Below are positions 16,540 to 52,098 of a DNA stretch of 64,000 bases, one piece after another (position 1 is the first letter of the stretch; each line of letters starts with the position of its first letter). The stretch is from assembly GCA_002269645.1 (NCBI GenBank), contig NIVC01002389.1, forward strand, positions 97,882 through 161,881, given 5' to 3'. Below the pieces are notes generated by a model. It was not told the DNA's origin, ran no database searches, and saw nothing but the letters and a program-made list of their open reading frames with translations. The position numbers and the translations under genes were made by a program. Source of the stretch: Macrostomum lignano (Eukaryota).

Positions 16540-17082
16540 TTTAATTGGCGCCGCTGTAAGGGTTTAATTGGCGCCGCTGTAAGGGTTTAATTGGCGCCAC
16601 TTTAAGGGTTTAATTGGCGCCACTGTAAGGGTTTAATTGGCGCCGCTGTAAGGGTTTAATTGGCGCCGCTGTAAGGGTTTAATTGGCGCCGATGTAAGGG
16701 TTTAATTGGCGCCGCTGTAAGGGTTTAATTGGCGCCACTTTAAGGGTTTAATTGGCGCCACTTTAAGGGTTTAATTGGCGCCGCTGTAAGGGTTTAATTG
16801 GCGCCACTTTAAGGGTTTAATTGGCGCCACTGTAAGGGTTTAATTGGCGCCACTGTAAGGGTTTAATTGGCGCCACTTTAAGGGTTTAATTGGCGCCACT
16901 TTAAGGGTTTAATTGGCGCCACTGTAAGGGTTTAATTGGCGCCACTGTAAGGGTTTAATTGGCGCCACTGTAAGGGTTTAATTGGCACCGCTGTAAGTGT
17001 CTAATTTCGCGCCGCTGTAAGGGTTTAATTGGCACCGCTGTAAGTGTCTTATTAGCGCCGCTGTAAGGGTTTAATTGGCGCC
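16540..17082. repeat. 23-bp tandem array
   Basis: AATTGGCGCC(G/A)CT(G/T)TAAGGGTTT, about 23 copies. Confidence 0.95.
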
Positions 17083-17429
17083 AAAGTTTCGGATAAGCCA
17101 GAATAAGCTCTCAGGCACATTTGAGGGCCTGAGAGTTCTCTCTGTTATAAGTCCTTTGTTCATATTTGGTCAGCAGGTAGAATTCCACTGTCTCTAATTA
17201 ATTAATTGACCCATTCCGACACATTCCATAAATTTGTACCCTTTTTCATTTTGCCTTAATTGCTGATTTATTATTCTTGTTTGTGTGTGACGTTTTTATT
17301 AAATATAAGTTTTCGTTTGCATGACCCAACACCTGCTTTTGCAGTATTTTTCATTATATTATCATTGCCCTAAATTATATTAACATTAAACTGCCCGCTT
17401 AATATATAATAACTACCTGTAAATACCTG

Positions 17430-17558
17430 AGTAGTATGGGATAACAGAACTCTGCCGCAGGAATTTCCGTGGAAAAGCCATGGGCCCTAGTGAGTGAACA
17501 TACGGGCCCATGTAAATCCATTGAGCGACTCTGCCGCAGGGAAAGCCATGGAAATTCC
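17430..17558 (+). repeat. Left terminal inverted repeat of the Polinton
   Basis: Reverse complement of 33227-33355, with 7 mismatches in 129 bp by manual alignment. Confidence 0.95.
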
Positions 17559-17668
17559 ATGGGGGGCACATCGGGTGGGCATGGGGGCCCGGTGAGATAA
17601 CAAAGCGCATGCTGGTATATGTACTGAAGGAAACTCATTATTGCACCCACCCCACTCCGCCTAGAAAG

Positions 17669-17678
17669 TATATATAAG
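17669..17678 (+). promoter_or_regulatory. Candidate TATA box for the PC4-domain gene
   Basis: TATATATAAG about 80 nt upstream of ATG 17753, just inside the left TIR. Confidence 0.4.
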
Positions 17679-17752
17679 ATGGGCGATTTTTTGAGGTTGG
17701 CTTCATGACGAAAGGAATTTTTGTGCATCCTTCTTAAAGAAACATATCATTA

Positions 17753-18481
17753 ATGGATCTCTGTGACGGCTTCAAAGTTCAAGTGCAAGAGTACGAAGGT
17801 CATCGCTTTATTGCAATCCGACGTTTCTTCTCCTCTGAAAGCGGGCTCAGAGCGGGCATCCCTGGCTTTAACCTCAATGCATACCAATGGGAGAAGTTGA
17901 AGCAGCTGAAACGCCAGCTTGTGCACTCGGCAGTCAATCGGCACAGCGTCACAGTCAAGCTTGGCTTTGATAAACTCGTTGTGGTCAGCAGGGGTATCAT
18001 CTGGCTGAAGCGCCTGCCGGAAGACTGTACAGAGGATTATCTGCGGCGGAACTCAGTGGCGCTGACTCCCCGTCTATGGGGAGAACTCTGGAAGAAGGCC
18101 GAGTGGATCGACAACGAGCTGCGAGAGAAGTCGGCGGAGAGTGAGTATCAGCTGGAGGCCGAGGACATCAAGCATGAGGGCCAAGAAACTCTGCCGGTCA
18201 GCGAAGAAGAAGAAGAAGAAGAGAAGAGGCTGCGCATCGTCGAGTCGGACAATGCAACCAGCTCGCCTGTTCTGCCAGAGACTTCAGTCGGGCGCATACC
18301 CCAGCAAGACAGCGACCTGTCGCACGACCCACTGTGGTACCGGTTCCGTGCTGCTTCAGGGCTCGGCAACAGCGGCTGTCACAAACGAAAGCTTCCGTGG
18401 CCCCTGCGCAGGCAAAATGCAATCAAGTTGCCCAAAGTGATCAATGGTGGAGAGGATGGTGACGCAGACAAAAGTGCTTGA
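17753..18481 (+). CDS. Polinton protein with tandem PC4 (transcriptional coactivator p15/ssDNA-binding) domains and an acidic tail
   Basis: FKVQVQEYEGHRFIAIRRFF...GIPGFNLNAYQWEKLKQL resembles PC4 (VREFKGKVLIDIREYW...GRKGISLNPEQWSQLKE). A second degenerate copy ends NSVALTPRLWGEL. AATAAA cluster downstream at about 18607-18620. Confidence 0.75.
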   Translation: MDLCDGFKVQVQEYEGHRFIAIRRFFSSESGLRAGIPGFNLNAYQWEKLKQLKRQLVHSAVNRHSVTVKLGFDKLVVVSRGIIWLKRLPEDCTEDYLRRNSVALTPRLWGELWKKAEWIDNELREKSAESEYQLEAEDIKHEGQETLPVSEEEEEEEKRLRIVESDNATSSPVLPETSVGRIPQQDSDLSHDPLWYRFRAASGLGNSGCHKRKLPWPLRRQNAIKLPKVINGGEDGDADKSA

Positions 18482-18701
18482 TAACTTTTTAAGTGACTAT
18501 GCGTGGACATTGCTATGCCATCTGTATTGATGTCTAACAGTTCTATTTATCCAGCTTTTTCAGCTTATTCATTAATGTCCTATTAAATGAGCTCGTTTAA
18601 AATTAAAAATAAAATAAAATAAGCATCTCTCTCTATAGTTATGCTAGTTTACTGGTGAACTTAAGAATGCGAAATGAGTTTAATTTTTTCTCTAATTAAA
18701 A

Positions 18702-19769
18702 ATGGAAAAGATTTACTTTAACCCTGAGCAGCCAGCAAGCTTTTCTGGCTGCAATAAATTTATTAATGAAGTTCGCACGCAGGGTATCCGAGTGAGTGAA
18801 AAAGCTGCGAAAAACTGGCTTAACGATCAGACAGTCTACACATTACATAAGCCAGCAAGGAGGAATTATCCGAGGGCCCCAATCATAGTTCGAAGTATTG
18901 ATGACCAATGGGAGTTGGATCTGGTGGAGATGATTCCTTTTTCCAAGTATAATAACGGCTACAGGTATATTCTAACATGCATTGATGTGCTGTCCAAGTA
19001 CGGATGGGCGAGGGCATTAAAGAACAAGTCTTCTATTGAAGTGAAGTCGGCATTCGAGAGCATATTAAGAAGTTCAAAGCGGCAACCGCGCACTGTTCGC
19101 ACTGATCAGGGGAAAGAGTTTATCAACTCTACTTTTCGCCAATGCTGTATGGAAAGGGGAATCCTGGCATTCCCAACCAACAGTGAGCAGAAGGCGGCTG
19201 TCATTGAACGATGGAACCGAACTTTAAAGAGCAAAATGTGGCGCTACTTCACTCACAACAGCACTCTGCATTGGCTTGATGTGTTGCCTAAGCTAGTGAA
19301 GTCCTACAACAAAACATACCACAGAAGCATACGAATGGCCCCAACGAATGTCAGCCAGGAGAACGAGTCCGAGGTCTGGATGAGCCTATATGACGGGAAA
19401 GCGATTGAAACTGTGGAAAAGCTGGGAAAGCCAAAGTTCAGCGAAAACCAGTCTGTGCGGATTTCCAATGCACCCAGGCTTTTTAGAAAAGGGTACAAGG
19501 CCAACTGGAGCGAAGAAGTGTACACGGTGGTGTCCAGAGCTCCAAAGCATTATCCCTACATGTACAAGATAAAAGACATGAAAGGAGAAGAGATTCGTGG
19601 GCTTTTTCACGAGCATGAACTGCAGGCCGTTCCGGAGTCGCAGCGGCTGTATGTGATTGAAAAGATTTTGAAGACTGAGAAGCGGCAGGGAAAGATCCGA
19701 TATCTGGTCAAGTGGGCCGGCTACGACTCCACTGACTGGGTGGATGAGAAGGACTTAAGAAAAGTGTAA
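18702..19769 (+). CDS. Retroviral-like (rve) integrase with C-terminal chromodomain
   Basis: DDE triad WELDLVEM / RTDQGKEF / VIERWNRTLK; chromodomain YVIEKIL...YLVKWAGY...WV; intact 355 aa. Confidence 0.95.
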   Translation: MEKIYFNPEQPASFSGCNKFINEVRTQGIRVSEKAAKNWLNDQTVYTLHKPARRNYPRAPIIVRSIDDQWELDLVEMIPFSKYNNGYRYILTCIDVLSKYGWARALKNKSSIEVKSAFESILRSSKRQPRTVRTDQGKEFINSTFRQCCMERGILAFPTNSEQKAAVIERWNRTLKSKMWRYFTHNSTLHWLDVLPKLVKSYNKTYHRSIRMAPTNVSQENESEVWMSLYDGKAIETVEKLGKPKFSENQSVRISNAPRLFRKGYKANWSEEVYTVVSRAPKHYPYMYKIKDMKGEEIRGLFHEHELQAVPESQRLYVIEKILKTEKRQGKIRYLVKWAGYDSTDWVDEKDLRKV

Positions 19770-19799
19770 GATGCCGACATTGTGCAGCCATTCCCAATT

Positions 19800-20609
19800 A
19801 TGAGAAGCATCATCATTAACAGCGAAAATGCTGAAGGTACTCCTGCTGACTTTCATTTTCACCTGCCTTCACCTATTTACTTGGATCGAAATGTGGACTA
19901 TGAGGCAGGTCTGGCTGAAATCCATCTGCCTGCTGCATGGTTCAATGTTGACGAGCCTTACTGCTTCACTGTCTCAGATGGAAGAGAGCATGAGGCCTTG
20001 GTTCTTCAACCCGGACGCTTTGCTAGAGTGGAGGAGTTGGTGGAGCGCATGAATGAGCTGCTGGCCAACTCTGAGTCACTGTTCTTCGATGCAATGAGTG
20101 AGAGGGAGTCTGAAATGGAGGCTGATGAGTCTGGTTTAATGGGGCGGAGCAGCGCTAGAGATATTGGCATAAAGTTTGAGATCCAAGAATTGAGAACGGT
20201 AGTGCTCAACAACACGGCTCGAGCAGAATTATTCCTTCCATCAAGTAAAATTCTGCAGTGGCTGGGATTCGGAAATCAGTCCGTGAAAATTCCACCTGGG
20301 CGCCAAGTTTCCATGTACCACATTGGCTGCCCGCCCACCAATCTGATCAACGTGCATTGTAGCATTGTGGAGTCAACTAATTGCAACTGGAATTCCCTGC
20401 TGCGAACTGTGAACATGAATCCTGAAGCCGGATGGGGAAGCTACTGGAGCAAAGTGTTTAAGAAAACAGTTTTCTTCCCCATTCAGAAAACAAATTTTCT
20501 ACACAGCATTCGAGTTCAACTGCGAGACATCTTTGGCTTCTCACTGACTGCTCATAGCGGCAGCCCTGTTCTGCTCACAATTCTGATACGTGAGAGACCA
20601 ATGCAATGA
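19800..20609 (+). CDS. Minor capsid protein (penton, single jelly-roll)
   Basis: IIINS...ADFHFHLPSPIYL...YEAGLAEIHLPAAWFNV at the N-terminus and LHSIRVQLRDIFG...VLLTILIR at the C-terminus; lies between integrase and the core/MCP genes. First ATG at 19800. Confidence 0.8.
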   Translation: MRSIIINSENAEGTPADFHFHLPSPIYLDRNVDYEAGLAEIHLPAAWFNVDEPYCFTVSDGREHEALVLQPGRFARVEELVERMNELLANSESLFFDAMSERESEMEADESGLMGRSSARDIGIKFEIQELRTVVLNNTARAELFLPSSKILQWLGFGNQSVKIPPGRQVSMYHIGCPPTNLINVHCSIVESTNCNWNSLLRTVNMNPEAGWGSYWSKVFKKTVFFPIQKTNFLHSIRVQLRDIFGFSLTAHSGSPVLLTILIRERPMQ

Positions 20610-21020
20610 ACTATCAGCAGCTGATTCGGCAGTATTCAGGGACTCGGACGGGAAATGAAAAGTCCATGCTCTATGGCTGCGGGAGTTTTCCTGGAATAAT
20701 GACTTACCAGCCTCCTCCAGCACCTTCCATAACATCATCATCATCATTAGCATCAAAGCCTGTACAAACCAGCAGTAGCAGCAGAAGCAATAGTACGAGT
20801 AATAGAAACATAGGAAATCAAGGACAGGCTAAAAAGGTGAATAAAAAGCAGGTGCGCATGAAGAAGAAGAAAAAAGTGGCGAAGCACGCAAAACAAGCAA
20901 GGTCAGAACAAGCAAGCAACCTAAGAAAAGAACGACTAAAACACAGACCAAGAAAACAGGCAAAGAAAACAAAAAGTGGGCAAAGAAACTGTGAAGCGTG
21001 TTCTGGACTCACTCTCATAG
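20606..21020 (+). CDS. Basic putative core/DNA-condensing protein (adenovirus pVII-like); apparent frameshift near the C-terminus
   Basis: K/R-rich C-terminal half. LYGCG matches the adenain cleavage consensus (M/L/I)xGx/G. As read, the frame runs on into the MCP N-terminus; a +1 frame gives ...VGKETVKRVLDSLS* ending at TAG 21018-21020. Confidence 0.55.
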
Positions 21021-21022
21021 CA

Positions 21023-22305
21023 ATGGCTTACGGATTCAACCCGAGACTCGATTTGTTCAAGTCCCCCGTGCTGCAGACTGCTATTGAAAAATCACGTATG
21101 TTGATATTCACCCCGTGAACTCTATTTCTACTAACTCACCAATTGAATTCGACTGCCATCCATCGGCTGATGAGTACACTGATCTGCTGAGCTCATTCCT
21201 GTATATTCGCTGTCGCCTAGTCCGGCTTGGCGGGGCTTTGATGAGGGAGGAGGTTCGGAATGCCGATGGAGTTGTCACTGAGCGCAGAGACAGTGGGGTG
21301 CACCCAGAAAACTTTGTCCTATCTACGGCATTCTCAGATGTAATCGTGAGCATCAACCAGCGCATTGTCTCTGGCGGAGACCAGCTCTACCCCTACCATG
21401 CCTACCTAAAAGCTCTCATGAGCTCATCCGATGCTCAGCAGTTAAATTTCTACCCCGCCGGATTCCTGGAACCCGAAACTGCTGCTGAGGGGCATGCCGA
21501 GAGACACAGGGAGTCCCGCTGGGTGGAGTATGCGGGACCGCTGCTCAGCGACATCTTCCAGTGTCCTGTTCTGCTGCTGAACAATTTACACCTGCACATC
21601 AAGCTGATGCCCAGTGAAGCTGCATTTGCCATCCGAACCCCAGATGAGAACAACACAGCCTACCGAATTGAAATTTCCCATTGTATTCTGAACCTGCGCC
21701 GAGTCAAAGTGGCGCCTCACATCAGCCTAGCGCATGAGCAGGGACTTACCAATCAGAACGCACTTTACCCCATCGAGCGAACCGAAATGCAAAACTTCAT
21801 TCTACCCCAGGGAATTCAGTCAAAAAACATTGAAGGATTCACCCATGGCAAACTGCCGAAGTTCGTTATGCTGGTCTTCGTGAACCACCGAGCCTTCAAT
21901 GGCCATCACCATTCCAGCCCCTTCGAGTTCCAGAGCTTCAACCTCAGCCAGCTAGCACTAAAGAAAGGTGGTGAAGCCATGTGCCACGCTGCATTTGCAC
22001 CTGAGAATAATTCATTCGTGAGAGAGTACTTGCACTACCTGAAAAGCTGTCAGTCTGCCAGCCCTACCAACTCGGTTCCGTGGGTCCCCTACCAGTTGTT
22101 CTCCAACGGCAACACAGCTTTCGCATTCGATCTCACGCCTGAGGGAGCGGCCCTGTGGTACGGACAGAAGGAGGGAAATTTGCGGCTGGAGATTCGCTTC
22201 CGACAGGCCCTGGAGGAGCCTGTATCTCTGATTGTTATGTGCCTGTATGACTCACTGATTGAGGTCACGAAGCACAGGGAGATTCTGCTAGATTTTCCAT
22301 CCTAG
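21023..22305 (+). CDS. Major capsid protein (hexon/double jelly-roll, Polinton PY-like), ~427 aa; 1-nt frameshift at 21111-21114
   Basis: MAYGFNPRLDLFKSPVLQTAIEKS lies in the upstream frame. PIEFDC, YPYHAYLKALM, RRVKVAPH...ALYPIERTE, AFNG...SPFEF, AFAFDLTP and GNLRLEIRF lie in the 21115 frame. One extra C in the CCCC run restores a single ORF. Confidence 0.9.
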
Positions 22306-22328
22306 GAGTACGCTGGCGCAACGCTAAT

Positions 22329-22847
22329 ATGGATGCTTTTCAACTGCTTAAACTGGCTAAAAGCTTTTTGCCACAAAATAACTATTTAATTATTGTCTTG
22401 AATTCAATAAATAAAACATCTTATGCTTTAAACTTTATTCAGCGAGCAACTCTCAAAAGAAATTTATCTCGATGTAGGTTTATTTTCTTTCTGCTTCAGT
22501 ACGGCTCGTCCTTTGGTCACTGGGTGGTTTGTTATGCCAATAAGGAGAATTCCATAGAACTCTTTAACTCTCTGGGCTGGGACTCAAGCACTTTAGAGAT
22601 CATTCACAGAGCACTGAAATCCTTTTGGTATTCTCCATTCTACTTACGTAGCAATGTGAATCGAATTCAGAGCTGCAACTCTGCTAAATGCGGTTTGTTC
22701 TGTCTCTTGTTTGCCTATCAAAAGTTTCGTTTCAAGCGCTCGTTTGAGTGGGTTCTGCGGCACCTCCATGCAAATCAGCAGAGCCACTTGAATGAAAGAA
22801 TTCTGCAAAGGTTTGAGAGTTGCTTAAGAAAAAATAAATTTAATTAG
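22329..22847 (+). CDS. Adenain-like cysteine (maturation) protease
   Basis: GHWVVC...ELFNSLG...RIQSCNSAKCGLFC (catalytic His and Cys, oxyanion Gln). Confidence 0.88.
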   Translation: MDAFQLLKLAKSFLPQNNYLIIVLNSINKTSYALNFIQRATLKRNLSRCRFIFFLLQYGSSFGHWVVCYANKENSIELFNSLGWDSSTLEIIHRALKSFWYSPFYLRSNVNRIQSCNSAKCGLFCLLFAYQKFRFKRSFEWVLRHLHANQQSHLNERILQRFESCLRKNKFN

Positions 22848-22880
22848 ACTTTTAAAATCAAGGATTTAGCTCAACAGGCG

Positions 22881-23534
22881 ATGGAAACACGTGAGCGGAT
22901 AAACTGTTATGATGTGCGCCTGCGACAAGGAAGCTGCATGATTGTCAGCGGGCCTACAAATGCAGGAAAGACAACCTTCGTGAAACATCTGATACAATAC
23001 AAGGATGTCATGTTTGATGTGAAGCCTGGGAGAGTTCTGTGGTACTACGGAATTTCACAAGCAGCACACTCTGAGCTCAGCAGTCTCGGCGTGCACTTGC
23101 AGCAGGGATTTCCCAGCAGTATCGAGACCGCACTGAGACCCAATGACCTGGTTGTATTTGATGACCTGATTGAAGAAACTTCCAATTCTGCTGCAATGCG
23201 AAATGTTTTCACTGGAATTGCCCATCATTTGCCCTGCTTTCTGGTTATGCTGACCCAAAATGTATTTTTTAAAGGGAAGGAGTTGCGAACAATGAGTCTG
23301 AATGCGATGTACTTTGTGATCATGAAGAACCCCAGAGACCAGCTGCAGATTGCGGCGCTGGGCAGGCAGTGTTTTGCTGAGAAGCCCGGCTTTCTGCTGT
23401 CAGTGTTCAAGCACGTGACATCGCACGGCAGGGGAGCCTACCTGCTCCTGGATTTTCACCCTTCCACCCCTGATGAGCTGCGGGTCCGGGCTCGAATCCT
23501 GCCCAATCAGCGACCCCACCTGGTTTACACTTAA
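22881..23534 (+). CDS. A32/FtsK-HerA family DNA packaging ATPase
   Basis: Walker A GPTNAGKT, Walker B LVVFDDL, AHH and LTQN motifs, SLNAMYFVIMKNPRD. Confidence 0.95.
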   Translation: METRERINCYDVRLRQGSCMIVSGPTNAGKTTFVKHLIQYKDVMFDVKPGRVLWYYGISQAAHSELSSLGVHLQQGFPSSIETALRPNDLVVFDDLIEETSNSAAMRNVFTGIAHHLPCFLVMLTQNVFFKGKELRTMSLNAMYFVIMKNPRDQLQIAALGRQCFAEKPGFLLSVFKHVTSHGRGAYLLLDFHPSTPDELRVRARILPNQRPHLVYT

Positions 23535-23581
23535 GAATAACAGCCGAGATTTTGCCATTTGCTCTATATTCTGCAACACTA

Positions 23582-23899
23582 ATGATAATGGAAACATTCG
23601 ACTCACATGAAAGTTTGTTTGATGTTCTCGCCTCACCGAAATATTCCATCAGCTTTAAACGTCTGTTGATCAGAGCGGGTCCAAAAGCAGTACATGAATT
23701 TCTCATTGAGGCCTGCTATAACCTATTGCAAAACACTCTGTCGTTCTCACTCACTGAAAAGGCAGCGCTAGTGAAGCAAAAGCAAATAATCCGCAAAATT
23801 TCTACACATAGAAGAGCTGCGGATCTGCTAAATACGGGTTTTATCAAAATTCTCTACATTCTAATAAAGCTAGTGAAGAAAAAGAAACAAAATGAATAA
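23582..23899 (+). CDS. Conserved small Polinton protein of unknown function
   Basis: LIEACYNLLQNTL...KAALVKQKQIIRKI pattern and its position after the ATPase; first ATG at 23582. Confidence 0.65.
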   Translation: MIMETFDSHESLFDVLASPKYSISFKRLLIRAGPKAVHEFLIEACYNLLQNTLSFSLTEKAALVKQKQIIRKISTHRRAADLLNTGFIKILYILIKLVKKKKQNE

Positions 23900-24584
23900 G
23901 TTCTCAGAAATGGTTCTGATCCCCAAGTCAGAATACGACATGCTCACACAGAATTTGAAGCCAGTTGAGTCTGAACTCGACACTGCTGTGAGATATGCGC
24001 AGAGGAAATGCAATGATATTTTGCTTGCCGAGGATTGCCCAGACGATGTGAAAGCTGCCATGTACCATGATGCGATGAAGAGTTTGCTGGCCAAGCGCAA
24101 GCGGACTGGAAAGGATGATGCGGTACCTGCGAGTGATGCAAAGATGCTGAAAACTGATATTGCACCAAGCAGCTGGGGGGAAAAGATCACCCAATCCGTG
24201 CCGCAGAAGTTTAAAGCGAGAGCCCGCAGTCTATGGGCCATCCTATCTGGCAATCCTTCTCTGATTCGGGTGTCCGAAAATGGCGAGGCGCAAATTTGTG
24301 GGAAGACAATACCCTCCTCAAACATCCTGGATTTGTTTCACAGTGCCGTGAGGGATTCGAAATGTGCCAGCGAGCCGGTGGGCTGGAGTGAGTTTGTCTC
24401 ATTGCTCCAAGATAAAAAGCTTAACATCCCAGCTTCGGCCATAGGAAAGTCAGTTAGGCAGCTAATTTCTAAACCTGCTGTTTCTCCAGAGGCCGCCCCT
24501 GCTCATCATACAGTTAAAGGATTCGGGAGTGGGAGAGCTTGGCTACAGCTGAACAGGAAAAAACTATTTAAGAAGGGGAACTGA
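23892..24584 (+). CDS. Conserved Polinton protein of unknown function (possible virion protein)
   Basis: MVLIP N-terminal motif, ENGE...GKTIPSSNILDLF, and C-terminal VKGFG (possible protease site) followed by W; overlaps the upstream ORF by 8 nt. Confidence 0.65.
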   Translation: MNKFSEMVLIPKSEYDMLTQNLKPVESELDTAVRYAQRKCNDILLAEDCPDDVKAAMYHDAMKSLLAKRKRTGKDDAVPASDAKMLKTDIAPSSWGEKITQSVPQKFKARARSLWAILSGNPSLIRVSENGEAQICGKTIPSSNILDLFHSAVRDSKCASEPVGWSEFVSLLQDKKLNIPASAIGKSVRQLISKPAVSPEAAPAHHTVKGFGSGRAWLQLNRKKLFKKGN

Positions 24585-24624
24585 GTCGGCTTCCCGATAT
24601 CAGGCATCTTGAAACCATCCGATC

Positions 24625-25470
24625 ATGAACTATATTGACTTCCAAGGCTTCCCACGCGAGAGATCGAGCAGAGATTTCGTTGTGAAGGAGCTAGCCATTG
24701 CCCAAGTCCGGGCAGGCAGTTACCATATCACTCATCACGTGTACGCCTCTCCGTTCTCATGGGAGCGAATCTCACCTGAGATGCAGGTGCATTACAGAAA
24801 GCTCTCAAAGAATTTGCATCATTTCAAGTGGACAGATGGATCCCGATCGTACATGCATTTGGCAAATGACATTCTAAACATTGCTTACGGCCCCACCTGG
24901 ACAAGCGGGGTGAAAAAGTCCATCTTTCTGACTGAGCTGCTTGGCAGACAGGTGTACAACCTAGAGGATCTGGGATCACCTTTGATTCAAGCATCTGATA
25001 CTGGTTGTGCAGTGAAAAATGTATTGCTCTACTACAACTGGCTGAAGCCAAAGTTCTGTATCAACTTAAGAAGCGAGGTGTGCCCGCACCACTCAAAGGC
25101 TCTCAAAGACAGCACCACTGACAGAAAGGACTCTCTAAATGAGTACACCTGCGACAGCCCTGCGAGTGACCAATCTGGTTGGCGGCGTGGATCTGAGGCT
25201 GGCTGGAGGCAGGGGTGCCCAGTTGCCTCTGCGGGAACTGGCTCTCAGCATGGCTCATGTCATCTATCGCCCCGTCTGGCCCCGAGTGCTCATCAAGAGG
25301 ATGCGGAATCCCAGAGTGACTCTGTTGCTCTATCCGACTGGACAACTGAGTATCTGTGGCGCCCGGAGCTACTCGGCCTCAGTCAAGGCTGCCCGTCGCT
25401 TCGTGGCTATGCTGCATCGCAGAGTTCCGCCTCAACTGCTGCCTCGTCAATCCGTTTGTGTCCGAATTAA
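24625..25470 (+). CDS. Polinton accessory protein, probable RNase H/DEDD-exonuclease-like fold in the first ~140 aa
   Basis: YIDFQGF...FVVKELAI...HHFKWTDG...KSIFL...VYNLEDLG...CAVKNV..YYNWL. The last ~110 codons overlap the TBP-like ORF. Confidence 0.5.
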   Translation: MNYIDFQGFPRERSSRDFVVKELAIAQVRAGSYHITHHVYASPFSWERISPEMQVHYRKLSKNLHHFKWTDGSRSYMHLANDILNIAYGPTWTSGVKKSIFLTELLGRQVYNLEDLGSPLIQASDTGCAVKNVLLYYNWLKPKFCINLRSEVCPHHSKALKDSTTDRKDSLNEYTCDSPASDQSGWRRGSEAGWRQGCPVASAGTGSQHGSCHLSPRLAPSAHQEDAESQSDSVALSDWTTEYLWRPELLGLSQGCPSLRGYAASQSSASTAASSIRLCPN

Positions 25471-25705
25471 GACTATTACTGCTTATGGAAAAATAGACTT
25501 GCCCAAGGCTCTATCACTAAGAAACCTCTGTGAAGTGCTACCGAATGCGAAATATGAACCTGAAAGTTTTACTGCTTTAGTTTGTCAGCTTCAATACTGC
25601 AAGTGTACGCTTTTTCACAATGGCTCATTTGTGCTCAGCGGAGCAAAGTCTAAGCATATGCTACAATCAGACCGTTCCCTATTAGCTTGCTTGCTTTCAA
25701 ACTGA
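25139..25705 (+). CDS. TATA-binding-protein (TBP)-like protein, complete two-repeat core, 188 aa
   Basis: Repeat 1: LRVTNLVGGVDL...RMRNPRVTLLLYPTGQLSICGARS...AARRF (TBP: LQNIVSTVNL...[24 protein letters not shown]...AARKY). Repeat 2: YEPESFTALV...TLFHNGSFVLSGAKS (TBP: YEPELFPGLI...LIFVSGKVVLTGAK). AATAAA signals follow the stop. Confidence 0.85.
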   Translation: MSTPATALRVTNLVGGVDLRLAGGRGAQLPLRELALSMAHVIYRPVWPRVLIKRMRNPRVTLLLYPTGQLSICGARSYSASVKAARRFVAMLHRRVPPQLLPRQSVCVRIKTITAYGKIDLPKALSLRNLCEVLPNAKYEPESFTALVCQLQYCKCTLFHNGSFVLSGAKSKHMLQSDRSLLACLLSN

Positions 25706-26265
25706 AATAAATAAAAAGAAAGAATAAATCGCGGCTTGTTTAATTAAAATATTCAAATTAATTCTCTCTCATGCACTAGCTTTTTTGTCTTCATTTTTAA
25801 TTGCAATGAAAAACCAGTGGTGAACATCTTGTAGAGATAAACAAATAGCAAGCTAAAAGCAAATACGAGCAAGCAGATAAACCACTACAAAAATAGGAAA
25901 AAATAGTCCAAAAGCAGATGGAATATATTAAAACTTATAAAGCAATATCAGGATTCAAAAAACCAACCACAAAGTACAGGTAAAATTAGAAAAAAATAAA
26001 ACTCTCACATGCCATCACCGCAAACACCACCACCACCACTAACGAAGCATTGGTTTCATTATCATCATCGCGCAATTGTAAGTAAATATTGTGAAGCAAA
26101 AAATTGTTGCTAGCCTCAGCAGATGATCAAAGTTTTTATTGCATGCGGAAAAAATCCTATTTAGATTAGCGGTTAACCTTTATTCAATGTCAAAGAAAGA
26201 AACTTTGAAATCGCAAAGAAATTATTGTTTTTGTTTAGCAAGCTTGTTGTACTCATTATTCAATT

Positions 26266-26353
26266 TCAAAGTAGTCGGCGCCGTTTTGATGATTTCTGCT
26301 GCTGTTGCTGCTGCTGCTGTTGTTGTTGTTGTTGTTGTTGTTGCTGCTGTTGC

Positions 26354-26422
<69 letters not shown>

Positions 26423-29400
26423 AGCAGCCGAATGTGACCAAATGGGAGACTATAGTTAGGGCTCAGCCAAGCGCGCTTGTCTTCCCAAATGCTTAAGGCA
26501 CACTTCCGCTGCTGCAAAGTGTACAGTCGGTGATGGATGCTGGCAATACGATGAACAACGACAGAATGGCTGCAGAGCTCATTGAACACCCTTAGGTAGT
26601 CACTGTGAGCCAGCTCTTTCTTAACAATGCATCCTTGAACTCCTTTGGCCTTCTTCTTTTCCGCGGCTTGGCTACTCGCCTTGAATGAGTAAAGCTTCGG
26701 CCTTAGGAGCAGCCACTCCTCAAAGCGAGCACCGGCTGCTTCATCCTTAATGCAGCCAAGTCGCGCTTTTAAATCATTCGAGAATAGCGCGTGCTCTTGA
26801 GGATAGTTTGAAGTGTCGAGCAGCTGCTTCGACTTCAACAGCGGTAGAACTTTAGACTGAACGCTCATGTTGCTGATTGAGAGAAAGAAAGAATCGGTAT
26901 CACCACCGCATAGCTTGATGACACCTCCATCGTTCTCTATCCAGGGCTTCAGTTTGTCGTAAAACAGCTCGTACATAATCATTTTCGAAAAGTCTAGGAC
27001 GCATTGCCCGATAAAAATAGGCCGATCGAGCTTTAATTTTGTCTTTTGCAGTTCCAAAACGCTTAGTGAATCAGTAATTATGATAAAATTGGTAATTGTC
27101 GGCTTGGCAAGCAGTACCTTTACCTTTTCCACGTTGGTGCAGACTCGAATATCACGCCGCTTTCGCACATTCTCCATAGTTTTGCCGAATAGCGCGTTAT
27201 TCTTTAACTTGTAGAAATCCTTTTCGAAGTTGGTTTTCGCTGCAGCCCGCTTCTGGCTATTTTTCTCGACGTAGGCAGCAAAGAGAGGCTCTTGGTGAAA
27301 CTCAATCATGCGATTGATGCGTCTAACCCGCATTCCATGGTTCAGGTAGAACGCCAAAATAGAGGAATGAACCACATAGGAAGGCTTATCGTGACAAGTG
27401 AGCATCAGCTTCTCTGTCGGATGATAGGTGGAGTTCTCCGTACCGACCTTTTCCCACAGCTGCTGCATGTATTCAGGAAATTCCCTGAAATTCGGGGCAG
27501 CCTTTTCCGGTGCAAATGGTAGGTCTTCGGTGGTTTCGTGAATCTCTGGGGGATACTCAAGGTCAACATCAAAGAGGTAGGCGAGTGGATCGGTTAGCTT
27601 GAGTCCTCGAATGCGATCTTCAGTCCACAAAAGCAGCTCATCATCGTCCAGCCAACGGAATCCTCCGACTGGTAAGTTCATAGTGAGCGCCTGTCCATAC
27701 AGGTTGTTTGCATCCACAGCAAGAAGCTCGGTGAGGCCAGCATGAATAGTAGGAGTGCCACCATCAACATCCTCATTGCTGTCAACACCAGTGCTGGCGC
27801 CCGCTGCTGAGGTAGCCTGCACTTTGTGGATGTTAACAAACGACATGCCGCCGCGAATGCCGCGCTCAAACAGCGAATACATCTGCGCATCTGTTAGCAG
27901 TTCAATCCCTGACTTGATGGATTTCAATGCCGAAGCGAATGATAGGCCTGGTGTCGAAATAAAATGGACTGGATCAAGGCCATCCTCTTGCATGCTGATC
28001 TTGCGAAAATTTTCAAAAATATCAGCCAACTGCCTGATGTCGAGCTCGAGGTAGCACAGCATGTACTCTTTTAGATTTGAAACCTGAAATTCTCGCCAGG
28101 CGCGTTGAGCATGCTCATAGTCAGAGTTGGTGCAGTGGCTCTTAGTCAGAGCATTGTAGAAGCTCTCTTGGCTGGGAAGCACGGCATCCTTCAGCACGTC
28201 TGAATTTTTAAGATAGTCATACGGGAAAACTCCCTTGCTGAAAAGCACTTCGGATGATAGCAGTGGGAATCTGCTGCTGCGTAGGCGACTAGTGATACGA
28301 CATTCAGCCTCTGGTAAATTTTTGATGAGCTGTGAGAGGCTGGCATTAAGAAATTGATTCGAATCAATGAACTGAATAGTAAAATTTAAAGGCTTGATCT
28401 TGCCCTCACTCTCATACTCGCCGATTTTAAATTCGATTTTCATCGACAGAAACTGCTCTGGATTCAGAGGGATGACGGAGATTTTCCAACCCTCCATCAG
28501 ACCCAAAGCGGATGACATCATGAGATGGAGATCGTACCCCTTGAAATTGTGGAACACGACGGGAAGGAAAGACCTCTTTAGTCTGGCCTTCATATTACAA
28601 TCAGCACACGCAGCTCCCCGAAATTCTCCGCTGAGGTGGTCGTGATCCCAATGTTTATTGGACCCTTCCGTGAATTCGCTTCTACAATAGCAGCAAGCTG
28701 TGGCTTCTCTGAACTGTCGCCCTGCCATCTCTGTTCTTATCGCTGCTTGTCGACTGAACTCCGTGTTCCAGCCGTAAACTTCACGAGCGAGCTTCTCCAG
28801 CGATTGCAGGAAATCGGAAATGCACTTATTAGGATCGTCGCTGACAAAAGTGCTCACTTTATCATCCGCTCCTCTGGGCGCTAGACCAGTCATCCCTTCT
28901 CTGTGCAGCACGATGTAGCCAGCAGCAACAGCAATGTGCTCAGTTAACTTCTTCGTTGCTATACCAGCAATCGAATCTTCTTGGCATGGAGCATTCAATG
29001 CTTCGAAGTCGGCGTAAACAACAAATGGCGGACTAATTGTTTTTTCCCATGATGAGAATCGGAGAATATTATTCCTTTCATCTGGCAACTCTTCCTTGAC
29101 GTTGATCACTCCAGGTTGACAAGGAGCTCGGCTGTGTTCTTCAAAGGCTGCATCACTATGAAAGGGCAGCAAGCAGCGCTCACACCACTTCCGCCGATGC
29201 AGAGCTGCCTTGCTATTAAGAAGCCTGTTGATGCTTGAAACAGCACACCAATGACCCGAGGCCTCGTCTTCTGATGGTGGAATAAATAAGAGTAGAACAA
29301 CTTCTCGATCTTTAATTGTAGCTGCAGTAGGCAAGCGGAGGACTTGAGCGCTCTCTTTCTCCCAGATGAAAACCGTGAAGCAAAGTCTCGGGTTCAGTCT

Positions 29401-30578
29401 CTCAACAATGGAAAGGTCGGTGACATTGATTGGCAAGTCAATTCCACTCATGTTAAGTTCATCCAGCCAGTCAGTGTAGGAAGACTCGCGTTGCGCTGAT
29501 TTCTTTATTTTGTTGTCTTCCTTGTGCAGAAAAGCAAGGCATGCGTAAAGAAAGCAATTTACACCATTGCTTGGAGGACAAATAACCGCCTTCTTCCGAA
29601 GAAGTGGAGTCGGTAGAATAAATTCCGCAGCATGCCCCGTGTAGTAGGAAACTCGTTCGACGAGAGCTGAGTAAAGTTCAAAAAAATTGATTTTTTCAAT
29701 TATCCAGCCACTACCGTTGGTGTTGTAGACATCGACTTTGCGCTCCAGCTCTGTAAACTGCTGTCTCCACCAATCATCAAACTCCTGTATATCTACCACC
29801 AATCCGAGTTGTGTGCTCATCCATTTATCCTCCCCCTTGACAGCTTCTGACGCCTGCACTCTGACCATGCGCAAATTCAGTTTGATCTGAGCTTTAACAG
29901 AGCAATTATCCGAAGAGTCGAAGCGAATTTCAAGACACTGCTGCACTGCGATTTTGCAGAAATCGAGAAACTCGAATGTTTCAGTGGCAGCTCCAGGTGT
30001 AAATCGATGAACTTGAAGAACATCTTCGTGAGCGCTGGTTTTTAACGCCAGGGTGAATGAAGGTCCTACAATTGAAGAAGGGAAGATAGTATTAAAAATA
30101 TTTATGGAAAGTGGAAATGATGAGAAATGTCTCTGGGAGTTATGGAAGTCGAATATTTTATTGCCCTTTTTTACACTTACGAGTATACTATTTATCCTAC
30201 TACCTTATATCTAGATTTAATATTTTTTTATTAATCAATACGAGCTACGTATAAGTGTAAAAAAAGAATTTGAAGAGTTATTATTGAAGAAATAGATGGA
30301 GTTCTGCTTTCGCATTTTTGTCAATTCATCTAATGAGGAATAAAAATGTCTCATTATTGTGAGTTCTCCGGCTTAATCCTGTTGGGAACCATTTGGGAAT
30401 TGTTGTGTAGGCGAGAAAAATATAAATAATTCCGTTGCTAAGAGACAGGAATGCAACAAACAGAAATGCATGAGTTCATAAAACCAGCAATGGAATGAAA
30501 AAACTTACCACTCGGTCCAAATTCGTGGCTGACAGCTGGGTCCACCGGCTCGTCCTCTTGACTCGATGAGGTGGCCAT
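26266..30578 (-). CDS. Protein-primed family-B DNA polymerase (pPolB); 2 exons (30578-30509, 30065-26266), ~1289 aa
   Basis: Exonuclease motifs YADFE, FHNFKGYD and ELDIRQL; polymerase motifs DANNLYG, KLKNNALFGK, GDTDS, RPKLY and KAKGV; endonuclease-VII-like DHDHLSGEFRGAACADCN. The frame stays open upstream of 29946 through a TTGTAG acceptor, and a phase-1 ATG exon ending G|GTAAGT joins it in frame. Confidence 0.93.
26296..26421. repeat. CAG/CAA trinucleotide tract encoding C-terminal polyQ of pPolB
   Basis: About 42 codons, almost all Gln, immediately after the conserved LPFGH end motif. Confidence 0.95.
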
Positions 30579-31269
30579 TACAGAGAATTAATATTAGAAA
30601 TAGAGCGACATTTAGTGAAGAACTCAATGCTGCTGAAATTCCAGTGTAAAAGTGTTGTTTGATAAATTTAACCCAAGTGCAATTCTGTCAGAGATGTAGT
30701 GGAGTGATAAATTTCCAGCATTCAGAGCTCTATGGAGCAGAAATTGAATCTAACCAAAGTCATGCTTGACAAACCAAATTCATGTCATTCTAAACATTGG
30801 GTATCATAGATCATCAATCCCATATTATACTCATAGAGTTGAGTAGATGCTGTGAACCTAACGGTAATTCTATAAGCGAGTGAACCTATAACTTCTTCGA
30901 AGATATTCACATGATTGAAAAAAAAAAACAAGTAATGAATTCAACAAAGTCCAAGAAAGTGCAAAAGCTTTCATTAAAAGCAACCATCAATCCATTATAT
31001 TTCTGGTAAAGCATTTCGCAATGCAAAAAATCATGCTCGTTAGTCACCCTACTAATTAAAGCTGCTTATTAAAGCTTTATTATAAGAATAAGTTTGAACA
31101 GTAAGCCTAAATTATTTTCTTTTTCACTTTGTTTATGAGAAACCTGTATGAGCACGATGAGGTGCAACGTAATTAGTTAATATTTATGCAGGGTAGAATG
31201 CATTGGTTTTACCCTAAAAATCTACAAATCTCGTTTCCCCTACTTTTAAATACTTTGAACTGGGACACT

Positions 31270-32418
31270 TTAAGAGCTACTTAAGCGAATGCGAGTTCCT
31301 CCCCCAAGGTCAATAAAATACTCGCCCTCGACTCTGCTCGGTAGTACCAGCTGAATGCAGACTGACGGTGGCATCGGTGGCATGGCTTCTACGACTGGGA
31401 TGTCACCGGTTTGGATTTCTGGTGCAGCCGGTGGAGTAGGAGGTTCGAATTCTCGCAGGAGATCGGATAGGCTTGCTTCTGCCATCATTCTGGCTTGCTC
31501 CATATTTTTTCCTGCGACTGGAACAGGCCTGTAGGGTGGCATCTGTTGCTGCTCAGCTTCTTCATTTGCCAGCTCAACAGGCTCCAAATCGACATCCTCG
31601 AAGAAGGCAGTATCCAACTCCGAAGGAGCTGCAAAACCAGTGGAATCGTCAGCTGGGAGGCCGGCATCAGCAGTTGGAAGGCCGGCACTGTCAGCTGGGA
31701 GGCCGGCATCAGTAGTTGGAAGGCCGGCACCGTCAGCTGGGAGGCCAGCATCAGTAGTTGGAAGGCCGGCACCGTCAGCTGGGAGGCCGGCATCAGTAGT
31801 TGGAAGGCCGGCACCGTCAGCTGGGAGGCCGGCATCAGTAGTTGGAAGGCCGGCACCGTCAGCTGGGAGGCCGGCATCAGTAATTGGAAGGCCGGCACCG
31901 TCAGCTGGGAGGCCGGCATCAGTAGTTGGAAGGCCGGCACCGTCAGCTGGGAGGCCGGCATCAGCAGCTGGCGCAGCGGTTGAACCAAAAAAATCTGATT
32001 GCTGCTCCACAGCGGCAAGTGCAGCGGCAAGCAGATCAAAGTTTGCATCGGTAGCGTGCTGAAAATCTTCATCAGGCTGCTGAAAGACGCCCTGAATTGT
32101 CTGGCTGAGTGCGCTGACCGGTGCTCGACTGCGCTCGATAATGTTGAGCTGCTCTTGACGCTGGGCAGCCTCCAAGGCAGCAAAGCGGGCTCGTTTTAAA
32201 TCTCCAGGTGAGCTCCAGTTAATAATAATGTGGTTTTTGTGAGCTCGAACTTGCTGGCGCACATTAAAGAGCTCACGCGTCTGGCACTCGTGGCAAAGCA
32301 GCCAGCGACTGACATTGCAGCTGCTTTTCATTTTGTGACGTTTTAAGCCACCGAGCTCACATGAGTTGCAGGAAATGCATACCTCGTACACATATGAAGG
32401 GCAGCGCGATTTATTCAT
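31270..32418 (-). CDS. Polinton accessory protein: Cys-rich N-terminus with LxCxE, 14-aa repeat, acidic/Pro-rich C-terminus
   Basis: 382-aa ORF starting with ATG. CISC/CHEC pairs, LLCHE at aa 40-44, (ADGAGLPTTDAGLP)n, and LSDLL near the C-terminus. Confidence 0.7.
   Translation of the reverse strand: MNKSRCPSYVYEVCISCNSCELGGLKRHKMKSSCNVSRWLLCHECQTRELFNVRQQVRAHKNHIIINWSSPGDLKRARFAALEAAQRQEQLNIIERSRAPVSALSQTIQGVFQQPDEDFQHATDANFDLLAAALAAVEQQSDFFGSTAAPAADAGLPADGAGLPTTDAGLPADGAGLPITDAGLPADGAGLPTTDAGLPADGAGLPTTDAGLPADGAGLPTTDAGLPADGAGLPTTDAGLPADSAGLPTADAGLPADDSTGFAAPSELDTAFFEDVDLEPVELANEEAEQQQMPPYRPVPVAGKNMEQARMMAEASLSDLLREFEPPTPPAAPEIQTGDIPVVEAMPPMPPSVCIQLVLPSRVEGEYFIDLGGGTRIRLSSS
31648..31966. 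repeat. In-frame 42-bp (2x21-bp) coding tandem repeat
   Basis: GTCAGCTGGGAGGCCGGCATCAGTAGTTGGAAGGCCGGCACC, about 7.5 copies. Confidence 0.95.
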
Positions 32419-32559
32419 TCCAAATTTTTTAATGTTTGAATAGAAAAATCAAATTGAAGTTAAATTCAAATTAGAAGTAGAAACTTATGTCCCGTATTCA
32501 AGTATACGGTGTCTTATATACCTCGCTTATTCGAATCTGTGTTAATAAAAACATAGCCG

Positions 32560-32605
32560 CTATGTTTACAGCTTAGCTATGTTTACAGCTTAGCTATGTT
32601 TACAG
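32560..32605. promoter_or_regulatory. Triple forkhead-type motif repeat (17-bp period)
   Basis: CTATGTTTACAG at 32560, 32577 and 32594, 140-190 nt upstream of the ATG at 32418. Confidence 0.45.
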
Positions 32606-33226
32606 TCAGTAACCCAGCCGTCTCAGAAACCGGTTTTTTAAAATAATTTTATTAGAAAACCCAGATACAGAGCCTCTATTGAAAGCATACATGTACAAAA
32701 GTTCCTTTGCACTTGCCGCCAACTGGAACTCCCGACCAGACTGGGGAGCAATAAAACTGATAATTATTGAGCGTCCAATTCCATTTAGCAACACACCCAC
32801 CACCCCAAGAAAGGGGGAGATGCTTGGCTATTATAATCTTATTAAAGCAGCATCTTGTTATTGAAACTTTTGCCTAATTAATAGGCAAAAGTTTCAATTA
32901 ATTCCAAAATTCCAAAATCCTTAAATTCCAAAATCAAGTGATTTTTCAACAGTTGGTAGCTCAAATTTTAGACATGAATTGCAAATTGATTTTATTGTAA
33001 TCATTGAAATAAAGACACGCCCCTCCTCCTTTTACGATACCCGATGGAATATTAAATGTCATTCAGAAGCAAAGCATTGCCTGGTTTTATGAACCGAACC
33101 GCCTGTGTCCGTCGTAGCAGAACACGCATTTGCCAATACTCATTCATTGCGGTTAACGGAATTCCCGCGGAGCCCCAACCCATTCGCAAATACTTGCACC
33201 AATGTACTCTCACTAGGAGGTCTCAC

Positions 33227-33355
33227 GGAATTTCCATGGCCTGCCCTGCGGCAGAGTCGCTCAATGGATTTACATAGGCCCGTATGTTCACTCACTAGGG
33301 CCCATGGCTTTTCCACGGAGGTTCCTGCGGCGGAGTTCTGTTGTCCCATACTACT
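33227..33355 (-). repeat. Right terminal inverted repeat of the Polinton
   Basis: Ends ...CCCATACTACT and is followed by the TSD TACCTG. Confidence 0.95.
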
Positions 33356-33679
33356 TACCTGTAACGATACGCATCGCGCGAACCGGTTTTGCGGTGAAAC
33401 TAAAATATTTTGTACTTTAATTTCGACTTTTTTCCTTGTGGCTTCTCATCAACAATGCGAGATGATTCACGAGCTACGAGTTTCTATGTCCCCTTTGTTG
33501 CCTTCCTATTGTGCTTACGTATATTGATTTTAGTACTGTCAGCTCCATCAATTGTATTCTCGAGGTCAAAATTACAGGAACTGCTGCGATGTATTTAGGT
33601 ATTCATTATTAAGATATTAAGATGCTTTCGGTTGATGAAATTTCTTGTACTAGCTTGCCGCGGCTAATGGTGAGGGATC

Positions 33680-51039: not shown

Positions 51040-52098
<1,059 letters not shown>

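What the first reader, a model, noticed from the sequence alone, without database searches (positions are those of the whole stretch)
25139..25705. Polinton-encoded TATA-binding-protein homolog
This is a full two-repeat TBP saddle without an N-terminal extension, inside the TIRs. The four DNA-kinking Phe positions are aromatic (W47, Y65, F144, F159). The repeat-1 Asn is kept (N12), the repeat-2 Asn is lost, and the acidic YEPE stirrup that contacts TFIIB is kept. It is far too divergent to be a recent host retrocopy yet has an intact ORF, which implies selection. TBP homologs are established in large NCLDVs, but one in a 16-kb Polinton lacking RNA polymerase is unexpected. It could be an alternative-specificity TBP or a decoy for TFIIB.
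Basis: partly seen in the sequence, partly recalled or inferred. Interest (0 to 1): 0.92.

Follow-up and report, generated by a model that had tools for sequence, protein, structure and literature searches.

The report
Polinton-encoded TBP with its own box
A virus-like Polinton transposon carries its own reshaped TATA-binding protein, and many of its genes sit behind a shared non-TATA box (CTTAAGAA), which suggests a one-protein switch that points the host's transcription machinery at the element's late genes.

Summary
The gene is real. ORF 25139-25705 is a two-repeat TBP (Pfam E 1e-22; AlphaFold/Foldseek TM about 0.8) inside a 15,926-bp Polinton with TIRs, a 6-bp target duplication and an empty-site allele. 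It occurs at about 170 loci in this genome, in two clades about 35% identical, and is under purifying selection (dN/dS about 0.16). One correction: the first Phe aligns to Pro48, not Trp47. The DNA face is remodelled; both TFIIB-binding glutamates are kept; no TFIIB or RNA polymerase was detected in the element. New here: CTTAAGAA occurs five times in the element, always 42-74 nt before an ATG of the integrase-to-TBP block, and is conserved across copies and reading frames. Canonical TATA boxes lie before the two TIR-proximal genes. Best reading (0.6): an altered-specificity TBP that reads this box and recruits host TFIIB/Pol II for late genes, like a minimal herpesvirus vTBP. Binding and expression are not shown. 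A 'TBP' label already appears in one adintovirus/MELD figure legend. This scan noted Polinton TBPs in two other genomes, one with a TATAAAC box (unchecked notes).

The parts
25139..25705 (+). TBP homolog, 188 aa, two repeats, no N-terminal tail; N12, P48 (Phe1 column), Y65, T112 (Asn2 column), E140/E142, F144, F159
17424..17429 (.). left target-site duplication TACCTG
   Evidence: empty-site joint 17423->33356 with 6 shared letters in 4 of 4 runs
33356..33361 (.). right target-site duplication TACCTG
17430..17561 (+). left TIR, begins AGTAGT
33224..33355 (-). right TIR, 94% to left
17669..17678 (+). canonical TATA box (TATATATAAG) 84 nt before the PC4 ATG
17753..18481 (+). PC4-like protein (single-strand DNA binding / coactivator fold)
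   Evidence: PF02229 E 8e-5, below curated cut-off; weak homolog also in clade B
18660..18667 (+). CTTAAGAA box, 42 nt before the integrase ATG (non-coding DNA)
18702..19769 (+). retroviral-type integrase with C-terminal chromodomain
   Evidence: PF00665 E 2e-12, PF00385
19754..19761 (+). CTTAAGAA box, 46 nt before the ATG of the 269-aa ORF (inside integrase codons Asp-Leu-Arg-Lys)
19800..20609 (+). 269-aa ORF, putative minor capsid protein (inferred from size and position; no Pfam hit)
20606..22305 (+). basic core-like ORF and putative major capsid protein; in this copy the capsid gene is in pieces in different frames near 20.6-21.3 kb, while many other copies show open frames of 450-460 codons
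   Evidence: capsid identity inferred, fold not tested
22329..22847 (+). adenain-type cysteine protease
   Evidence: PF00770 E 4e-5, above cut-off
22823..22830 (+). CTTAAGAA box, 58 nt before the ATPase ATG
   Evidence: also in divergent copy L084
22881..23534 (+). P-loop ATPase, putative packaging ATPase
   Evidence: weak P-loop Pfam hits only; Walker-A-like motif visible
23530..23537 (+). CTTAAGAA box spanning the ATPase stop codon, 52 nt before the 105-aa ORF
   Evidence: also in L084
23582..24584 (+). two conserved ORFs of unknown function (105 and 230 aa)
24567..24574 (+). TTTAAGAA variant box, 58 nt before the 281-aa ORF (TATAAGAA in other subfamilies)
24625..25470 (+). 281-aa ORF; N-terminal about 165 aa is a widespread unnamed domain with a weak Maelstrom-like lead; its tail overlaps TBP repeat 1 in the -1 frame
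25065..25072 (+). CTTAAGAA box, 74 nt before the TBP ATG
   Evidence: in 63 of 63 intact clade-A TBP loci held
25706..25711 (+). AATAAA directly after the TBP stop, end of the + strand block
   Evidence: read from sequence
26266..29868 (-). protein-primed DNA polymerase B
   Evidence: PF03175 E 7e-14
31270..32418 (-). 382-aa ORF with internal tandem repeats, unknown function
32513..32520 (-). canonical TATA box (TATATAAG) 102 nt before the 382-aa ORF

Best explanation
The ORF is a long-established Polinton gene for a stripped-down TBP that acts as the element's promoter-selectivity factor. Host TBP/TFIID would fire the TIR-proximal genes from ordinary TATA boxes. The element's TBP, with its DNA face rebuilt, would bind the CTTAAGAA / HWTAAGAA box in front of the integrase, capsid-block, ATPase and TBP genes. 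It would recruit host TFIIB through the kept Glu-Pro-Glu stirrup, and so bring host RNA polymerase II to late genes. Shown: fold, residues, selection, membership of the family, position and conservation of the box. Inferred: that the box is a promoter, that this protein binds it, the TFIIB contact, and the early/late order.
For: (1) TBP fold. (2) Purifying selection in both repeats: 13 copies, 78 pairs; median dN/dS 0.16 over 57 usable pairs for codons 6-110 and 0.17 over 59 for codons 111-178. (3) 126 of 137 ATPase loci listed have a TBP match within 7 kb downstream; clades A and B (33-37% identical) form one clade apart from host TBP and TRF2, SH-aLRT 93 and 98 in quick trees. (4) DNA-face substitutions are themselves conserved across the 13 family rows: Phe2->Tyr, Asn2->Thr, Thr124->Cys, Gln158->Lys in 13 of 13; Val161->Thr 12 of 13; N1, F3, F4 and both Glu kept in 13 of 13. 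(5) CTTAAGAA: 5 hits in the element, all + strand, 42-74 nt before an ATG. In 5,000 random sets of nine 100-nt windows no 8-mer was shared by 5 and no 7-mer by 6, the observed values. (6) The box is read as Leu-Arg in three genes, as a stop codon in one and as non-coding DNA in one. It stands before TBP in 63 of 63 intact clade-A loci. At the integrase end it is in 80 of the first 100 matches listed (of 159) while neighbouring Glu/Lys codons vary; TTA-AGA is expected for about 2% of Leu-Arg pairs. (7) Clade B has 8 looser HWTAAGAA hits, all on the gene strand, none on the other. (8) Three partial contigs of one TBP-less Maverick lineage show TATAAAT boxes before several genes and only one HWTAAGAA hit each. 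(9) Viral TBPs mostly lose the two glutamates and bring their own TFIIB (PMC7221094); here the glutamates stay and no TFIIB was detected in the element. (10) Precedent: herpesvirus vTBP with TATT boxes and polar replacements at V122, T124, V161, T215.
Against: No binding, transcription-start or expression data; the runs laid are contigs of guessed type with no splice joints. The motif was found after looking, and the copies are related and partly duplicated in the assembly (host TBP itself appears 3 times), so counts are not independent. 3 of 9 block genes (core, protease, 230-aa ORF) lack the box within 100 nt. In clade A the TBP gene sits behind the box, so something else must start it; in clade B it has a canonical TATAAAAG. 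Clade-B spacings are loose (about 12-135 nt) and one hit lies downstream of TBP. Phe1 is lost, and F116Y and L189S, both present here, are listed as DNA-binding-null in yeast TBP (PMC2265533). The box contains TAAG, the baculovirus late initiation motif (PMC9786725). The TBP-less control is one lineage and partial.
Confidence: 0.6

Rival explanations
1. Decoy or host shut-off factor: the protein binds DNA poorly and sequesters TFIIB/BRF through its stirrup; the box is read by something else.
For: Stirrup glutamates invariant; Phe1 lost and yeast-null substitutions present; TRF2-type proteins do not bind TATA DNA (PMC4422821).
Against: N1, Y65, F144, F159 and the new DNA-face residues are invariant across clades about 35% identical, which a protein-only decoy would not need. 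An element without its own polymerase would harm itself by removing TFIIB (inference).
Confidence: 0.14
2. The box is a weak TATA variant read by host TBP; the element protein is a TFIID-independent general booster with relaxed specificity.
For: Clade B and the 281-aa gene use TATAAGAA, one base from TATAWAAR; canonical boxes exist in the element.
Against: CTTAAGAA differs from TATAWAAR (consensus as in PMC4422821) at three of eight positions and is held fixed rather than drifting toward TATA.
Confidence: 0.12
3. The box is the late promoter of a large helper virus (TAAG, as in baculoviruses); the element is a satellite and its TBP serves another step.
For: Both clades' boxes contain (A/T)TAAG; TAAG is required by baculovirus RNA polymerase; virophages sharing helper promoters is recalled knowledge.
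Against: The extra AA after TAAG is conserved; the element has integrase, a host-type stirrup and canonical TATA boxes. No LEF-8 or LEF-9 match in the genome, though these blanks do not show absence.
Confidence: 0.09
4. The box is an RNA-processing signal (3'-end or trans-splicing) of a polycistronic block, unrelated to TBP.
For: Three copies lie at the 3' end of the upstream gene; flatworm trans-splicing is recalled knowledge.
Against: One copy lies 400 nt before the stop of its host ORF, one follows an AATAAA, the block ends in AATAAA without the box, and no consistent pyrimidine tract-AG follows it.
Confidence: 0.05

Closest known systems
Polintons / Mavericks / adintoviruses (Starrett et al. 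2021, PMC8502044; Barreat and Katzourakis 2021, PMC8097293)
   Same: pPolB, integrase, protease, ATPase, putative capsid genes, about 16 kb, (AGT)2 ends, 6-bp TSD. The Fig. [quoted passage not shown]
   Different: No text on TBP function or promoters in the passages and section read; the figure could not be seen, so which virus carries it is unknown. TBP/TATA had 0 hits in five other Polinton papers searched.
Beta/gamma-herpesvirus vTBP (KSHV ORF24 and homologs; PMC7498053, PMC12529657)
   Same: Virus without its own RNA polymerase uses a TBP-fold protein and a non-canonical box (TATT) for late genes; polar replacements on the DNA face.
   Different: ORF24 is a 752-aa multidomain protein that binds Pol II directly and needs five more viral factors; a section heading of PMC12529657 calls its model incompatible with TFIIB binding. 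This protein is a bare 188-aa saddle with the TFIIB stirrup intact. No homology beyond the fold was seen.
TBPs of large dsDNA viruses (NCLDV; Ravarani et al. 2020, PMC7221094)
   Same: Viral TBP fold; BFVD hits at 6-20% identity, best E 3e-10.
   Different: Those mostly come with viral TFIIB and have diverged stirrup glutamates; here the glutamates are kept, no TFIIB or RNA polymerase was detected, and the model is closer to cellular TBP (E 4e-13).
Cellular TBP and TRF2/TLF (PF00352)
   Same: Two-repeat saddle, N1, F3, F4, E-P-E.
   Different: 27% to host TBP, 24% to host TRF2-like protein; separate branch; Phe1->Pro, Phe2->Tyr, Asn2->Thr. The host TRF2-like protein instead has Tyr, Arg, His, Phe in the four Phe columns.

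Membership tests
Polinton/Maverick | protein-primed DNA polymerase B | tested here: met
   PF03175 E 7e-14
Polinton/Maverick | retroviral-type integrase | tested here: met
   PF00665 E 2e-12
Polinton/Maverick | TIRs with (AGT)2 ends and 6-bp TSD | tested here: met
Polinton/Maverick | adenain-type protease | tested here: met
   PF00770 above cut-off
Polinton/Maverick | A32/FtsK-type packaging ATPase | tested here: inconclusive
   only weak P-loop hits below cut-off
Polinton/Maverick | double jelly-roll major and single jelly-roll minor capsid proteins | tested here: inconclusive
   no Pfam hit; assigned by size, position and conservation; not folded
TBP fold family (PF00352) | two TBP repeats forming the saddle | tested here: met
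canonical TATA-binding TBP | four intercalating Phe | tested here: not met
   Pro48, Tyr65, Phe144, Phe159
canonical TATA-binding TBP | both central Asn | tested here: not met
   N12 kept, T112
canonical TATA-binding TBP | two C-lobe stirrup Glu for TFIIB | tested here: met
   E140, E142 in 13 of 13 family rows
canonical TATA-binding TBP | binds TATA DNA and TFIIB | not testable with these tools
   needs a binding assay
TRF2/TLF | orthology to animal TRF2 | tested here: not met
   24% to host TRF2-like protein; does not group with it in quick trees; no AU test run
herpesvirus vTBP (ORF24 group) | large multidomain protein with Pol II-binding N-terminal domain | tested here: not met
   188 aa, stop codon before the ATG
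herpesvirus vTBP (ORF24 group) | cognate non-canonical box before late genes | tested here: inconclusive
   box present and conserved; binding and timing untested
NCLDV TBP/TFIIB system | viral TFIIB and RNA polymerase in the same genome | tested here: not met
   none among 13 element ORFs scanned; none of the 15 PF00382 matches lies on this contig

The most novel reading that the evidence does not exclude
Small integrating DNA viruses of animals have evolved one-protein 'sigma-like' TBPs, each paired with its own promoter box and plugged into host TFIIB/Pol II. This family is one branch. The 39 unnamed 163-200-aa metagenomic TBPs that share the Asn2->Thr change (38 of 39) and keep the stirrup would be others. 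That would be a natural library of orthogonal TBP-box pairs and the early-to-late switch of Polintons.
Probability: 0.4. Interest if true: 0.9.

Novelty: new variant of a known kind. Interest (0 to 1): 0.78.

Why it matters
In the papers checked, how Polintons time their capsid genes without an RNA polymerase is not addressed. A conserved element-encoded TBP plus a matching box gives a concrete mechanism that can be tested with one small protein and a few oligonucleotides. It would parallel the herpesvirus vTBP strategy in an unrelated virus group, in a much simpler form. It would also show how far the highly conserved TBP surface can be re-specified while still using host TFIIB.

Tried and rejected
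Recent host retrocopy or decaying passenger: rejected (27% identity, dN/dS about 0.16, two old clades). TBP ORF as a shadow of the overlapping 281-aa ORF: rejected; in the overlap synonymous change exceeds non-synonymous in the TBP frame and the reverse holds in the other frame. W47 as Phe1: rejected by register. Expression: no RNA holder listed. Three runs guessed to be RNA and one guessed to be DNA all cover the element as contigs, with no splice joints; not used as evidence. Context of outside relatives: IMG/VR scans with the family profile, host TBP, P0098, P0030 and the ATPase profile found nothing; the JGI metagenome scan gave 35 loci of generic TBPs at 23-39%, none with Polinton genes. 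So P0003-5, P0010, P0024, P0161, P0162 and the 39 short TBPs have no neighbours seen. LEF-8/LEF-9 searches were blank and uninformative. A TBP-TFIIB complex was not predicted: no host TFIIB sequence was in hand, and a textbook pair tends to pass by likeness. Trees are quick IQ-TREE runs; the careful run did not finish and no AU test was run. The union of this family with the 39 short TBPs is only an open fork at 84. The integrase-to-capsid region of other clade-A subfamilies was not read in full; the box there is known only from the pattern search. Literature searches listed no paper on a Polinton TBP or box beyond the Starrett legend. The library lacks most subscription papers, figures cannot be seen, the one supplement of PMC8502044 had 0 hits, and the bioRxiv supplements are closed and may name the TBP-bearing virus.

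Full report
OBSERVATION. The ORF at 25139-25705 (+) encodes 188 aa and begins directly after an in-frame stop. It matches PF00352 twice, E 1.3e-22, and 35 of the 39 PDB sequences matched are TBPs or TBP fusions. An AlphaFold2 model from a 13-row alignment has pLDDT 89.7; the 44 Foldseek matches at E <= 0.001 are headed by TBP chains with TM about 0.8. Against the host's own TBP (27% identity), N12 is kept, the second Asn is T112, Y65, F144 and F159 occupy three of the Phe columns, and E140/E142 are the stirrup glutamates. The first Phe column is P48; W47 sits on the preceding Arg. W47 could still stand in structurally; that was not testable.

THE ELEMENT. It spans 17430-33355 (15,926 bp) with 132-nt TIRs at 94%, AGTAGT ends and TACCTG on both sides. 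An empty-site joint skipping the element stands in 4 of 4 runs laid, so this insertion is polymorphic or has an unoccupied paralogous site. Genes: PC4-like, integrase with chromodomain, putative minor and major capsid, protease, ATPase, three unknown ORFs, TBP (all +), and pPolB and a 382-aa ORF (-). The capsid labels are inferred from size and position. Nearest named relatives are annotated in Macrostomum lignano.

FAMILY AND SELECTION. The protein gave 151 matches in the genome (150 of 228 candidates scored); 92 of the best 95 rows are near full length without stops (counted by eye). A second clade (B), 33-37% identical, has about 36 loci and lies in Polintons with capsid 43-47% and ATPase 42-45% identical and another gene order. 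After merging fragments (second fragments of a place were left out of the TBP lists), 126 of 137 ATPase loci have a TBP match within 7 kb downstream; conversely 103 of 134 clade-A and 21 of 36 clade-B TBP loci have a listed ATPase, the ATPase list being capped. The assembly holds host TBP three times, so loci overcount insertions. Other pPolB families exist on contigs with no listed TBP match (all capped), so TBP looks lineage-specific here. Nei-Gojobori dN/dS on 13 chosen copies: median 0.16 (57 of 78 pairs usable, max 0.25) for codons 6-110 and 0.17 (59 of 78, max 0.33) for codons 111-178. Relatives at 46-72% identity (clade A) and around 60% to clade B occur in Logan, ENA and JGI data, without visible context. 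In quick trees A and B form one clade (SH-aLRT 93 and 98) away from host TBP and TRF2. BFVD viral TBPs are only 6-20% identical. The donor cannot be named.

THE DNA FACE. Yeast numbering follows the tables in PMC12529657 (abstract and section 15 read) and PMC2265533 (passages). Across 13 family rows N69, L114, F190, F207, E186 and E188 equivalents are invariant, while F116->Y, T124->C, Q158->K and N159->T are also invariant, V122->S/T, V161->T/S and P191->S/T/N. Replacements that are themselves fixed across 35%-identical clades point to a retooled surface rather than decay (inference). Against this, F116Y and L189S are DNA-binding-null in yeast TBP. PMC7221094 (passages and section 11) identifies the two glutamates as the TFIIB contact and reports that viral TBPs mostly lose them and come with viral TFIIB. 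Here they are kept, and no TFIIB or polymerase subunit was found among 13 element ORFs.

THE BOX. Listing the sequence upstream of each ATG showed a shared CTTAAGAA. It has 9 hits in the window (3.8 expected, 0 of 100 shuffles reach 9). Five lie in the element, all on the + strand, 42, 46, 58, 52 and 74 nt before the ATGs of integrase, the 269-aa ORF, ATPase, the 105-aa ORF and TBP; TTTAAGAA lies 58 nt before the 281-aa ORF. Of nine block genes, 5 share the 8-mer and 6 the 7-mer within 100 nt; 5,000 random sets never exceeded 4. Core, protease and the 230-aa ORF lack it in that range. The box is read in different frames, and is present before TBP in 63 of 63 intact clade-A loci and before ATPase, the 105-aa ORF and TBP in the divergent copy L084. 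At the integrase end, 80 of the first 100 listed matches (159 in all; reversed control 74) of a degenerate Glu-Lys-Asp-Leu-Arg-Lys pattern spell it exactly, in three variants that differ only in the flanking Glu and Lys codons and include clade B. Clade B has 8 HWTAAGAA hits in L120 and L121, all on the gene strand, at about 12-135 nt from starts for most, one near 170 nt and one downstream of TBP; its TBP gene has TATAAAAG at 53 nt. TATAWAWR on the strand of an adjacent gene occurs in the window element only before PC4 and the 382-aa ORF, 2 of 4 hits. Three partial IMG/VR contigs of one Maverick lineage (integrase 40%) have no TBP in the part held, TATAAAT boxes before several genes and one HWTAAGAA hit each.

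MECHANISM. Most likely (0.6): host TBP starts the TIR-proximal genes; the element TBP binds the box, recruits host TFIIB and directs Pol II to the integration and particle genes, with positive feedback on its own gene in clade A. Spacing of 42-74 nt fits a box about 30 nt before a start plus a short leader (TATA position from PMC4422821, passages). Every functional step is inferred. Rivals: TFIIB decoy (0.14), weak TATA read by host TBP (0.12), helper-virus TAAG promoter (0.09; PMC9786725, passages), RNA-processing signal (0.05).

WIDER FAMILY. A profile of four short unnamed TBPs near this clade retrieved 35 more, 163-200 aa, on contigs up to 21.8 kb. 38 of these 39 have Thr at the second Asn and 37 keep both glutamates. 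Their union with this family is weakly supported and their context unseen; that they are viral is a guess.

WHAT IS KNOWN. PMC8502044 (passages, section 3.4, supplement search) and its preprint 10.1101/697771 (passages) list TBP in figure legends for MELD viruses, with no discussion; the figure was not seen. Term searches in PMC11296320, PMC11131425, PMC10748475, PMC8097293 and 10.64898/2026.06.19.733378 found no TBP or TATA. PMC10675990 mentions TBPs in mirusvirus-like elements (passage). Herpesvirus vTBP is the functional analogue (PMC7498053 passages). Two unchecked notes of this scan describe Polinton TBPs in other genomes, one with a TATAAAC box; I saw them after the analysis above and count them as leads, not support.

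VERDICT. A real, conserved, selected Polinton gene; it works like a herpesvirus vTBP on the best reading but is not a member of that family, nor a canonical TBP. New variant of a known kind. Interest 0.78.

Noticed in passing
window 25470-25705 and copies L010-L078: TBP repeat 2 is swapped among deeply diverged variants: synonymous divergence 0.53-0.83 in all 36 pairs, even where repeat 1 and upstream genes differ by 0.1 or less. A recombination break lies near codons 110-120, and pPolB variants assort separately.
   Followed up: partly
window 25138-25470: The 281-aa ORF stays open for 107-111 codons over TBP repeat 1 in 62 of 63 clade-A loci (chance about 1-3%), yet its tail shows no amino-acid constraint. 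Unexplained.
   Followed up: partly
window 24625-25125: Widespread unnamed domain (Atlas clusters mostly arthropod; weak Maelstrom lead at 0.88), also present in TBP-less Mavericks L123 and L124.
   Followed up: partly
window 17753-18481: PC4-like gene behind a canonical TATA box in clade A and present in clade B; could be a single-strand DNA-binding protein for replication or a coactivator.
   Followed up: no
P0030, P0088, P0092, P0098, P0172-P0206: 39 unnamed short metagenomic TBPs with the Asn2->Thr signature, on contigs up to 21.8 kb.
   Followed up: partly
G000 contigs such as C2506, C4799, C173, C2285, C1704: Several further pPolB-bearing families in the genome with no listed TBP match on those contigs.
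   Followed up: no
window 36048-37733 (-): Gag-protease ORF (zinc knuckle, aspartyl protease, PNMA) of an LTR retrotransposon next to the Polinton.
   Followed up: no
window 26266-26440: Long CAA/CAG run giving a poly-Gln C-terminus to pPolB.
   Followed up: no
L037-L042: Host TRF2-like gene, three copies, with a long low-complexity C-terminus.
   Followed up: no
window 175-1222, 2024-2976, 12559-13546, 16425-17114, 51171-52000, 53254-54084, 58021-58700, 62541-63596: Many minisatellite arrays with units of 8-38 nt outside the element.
   Followed up: no
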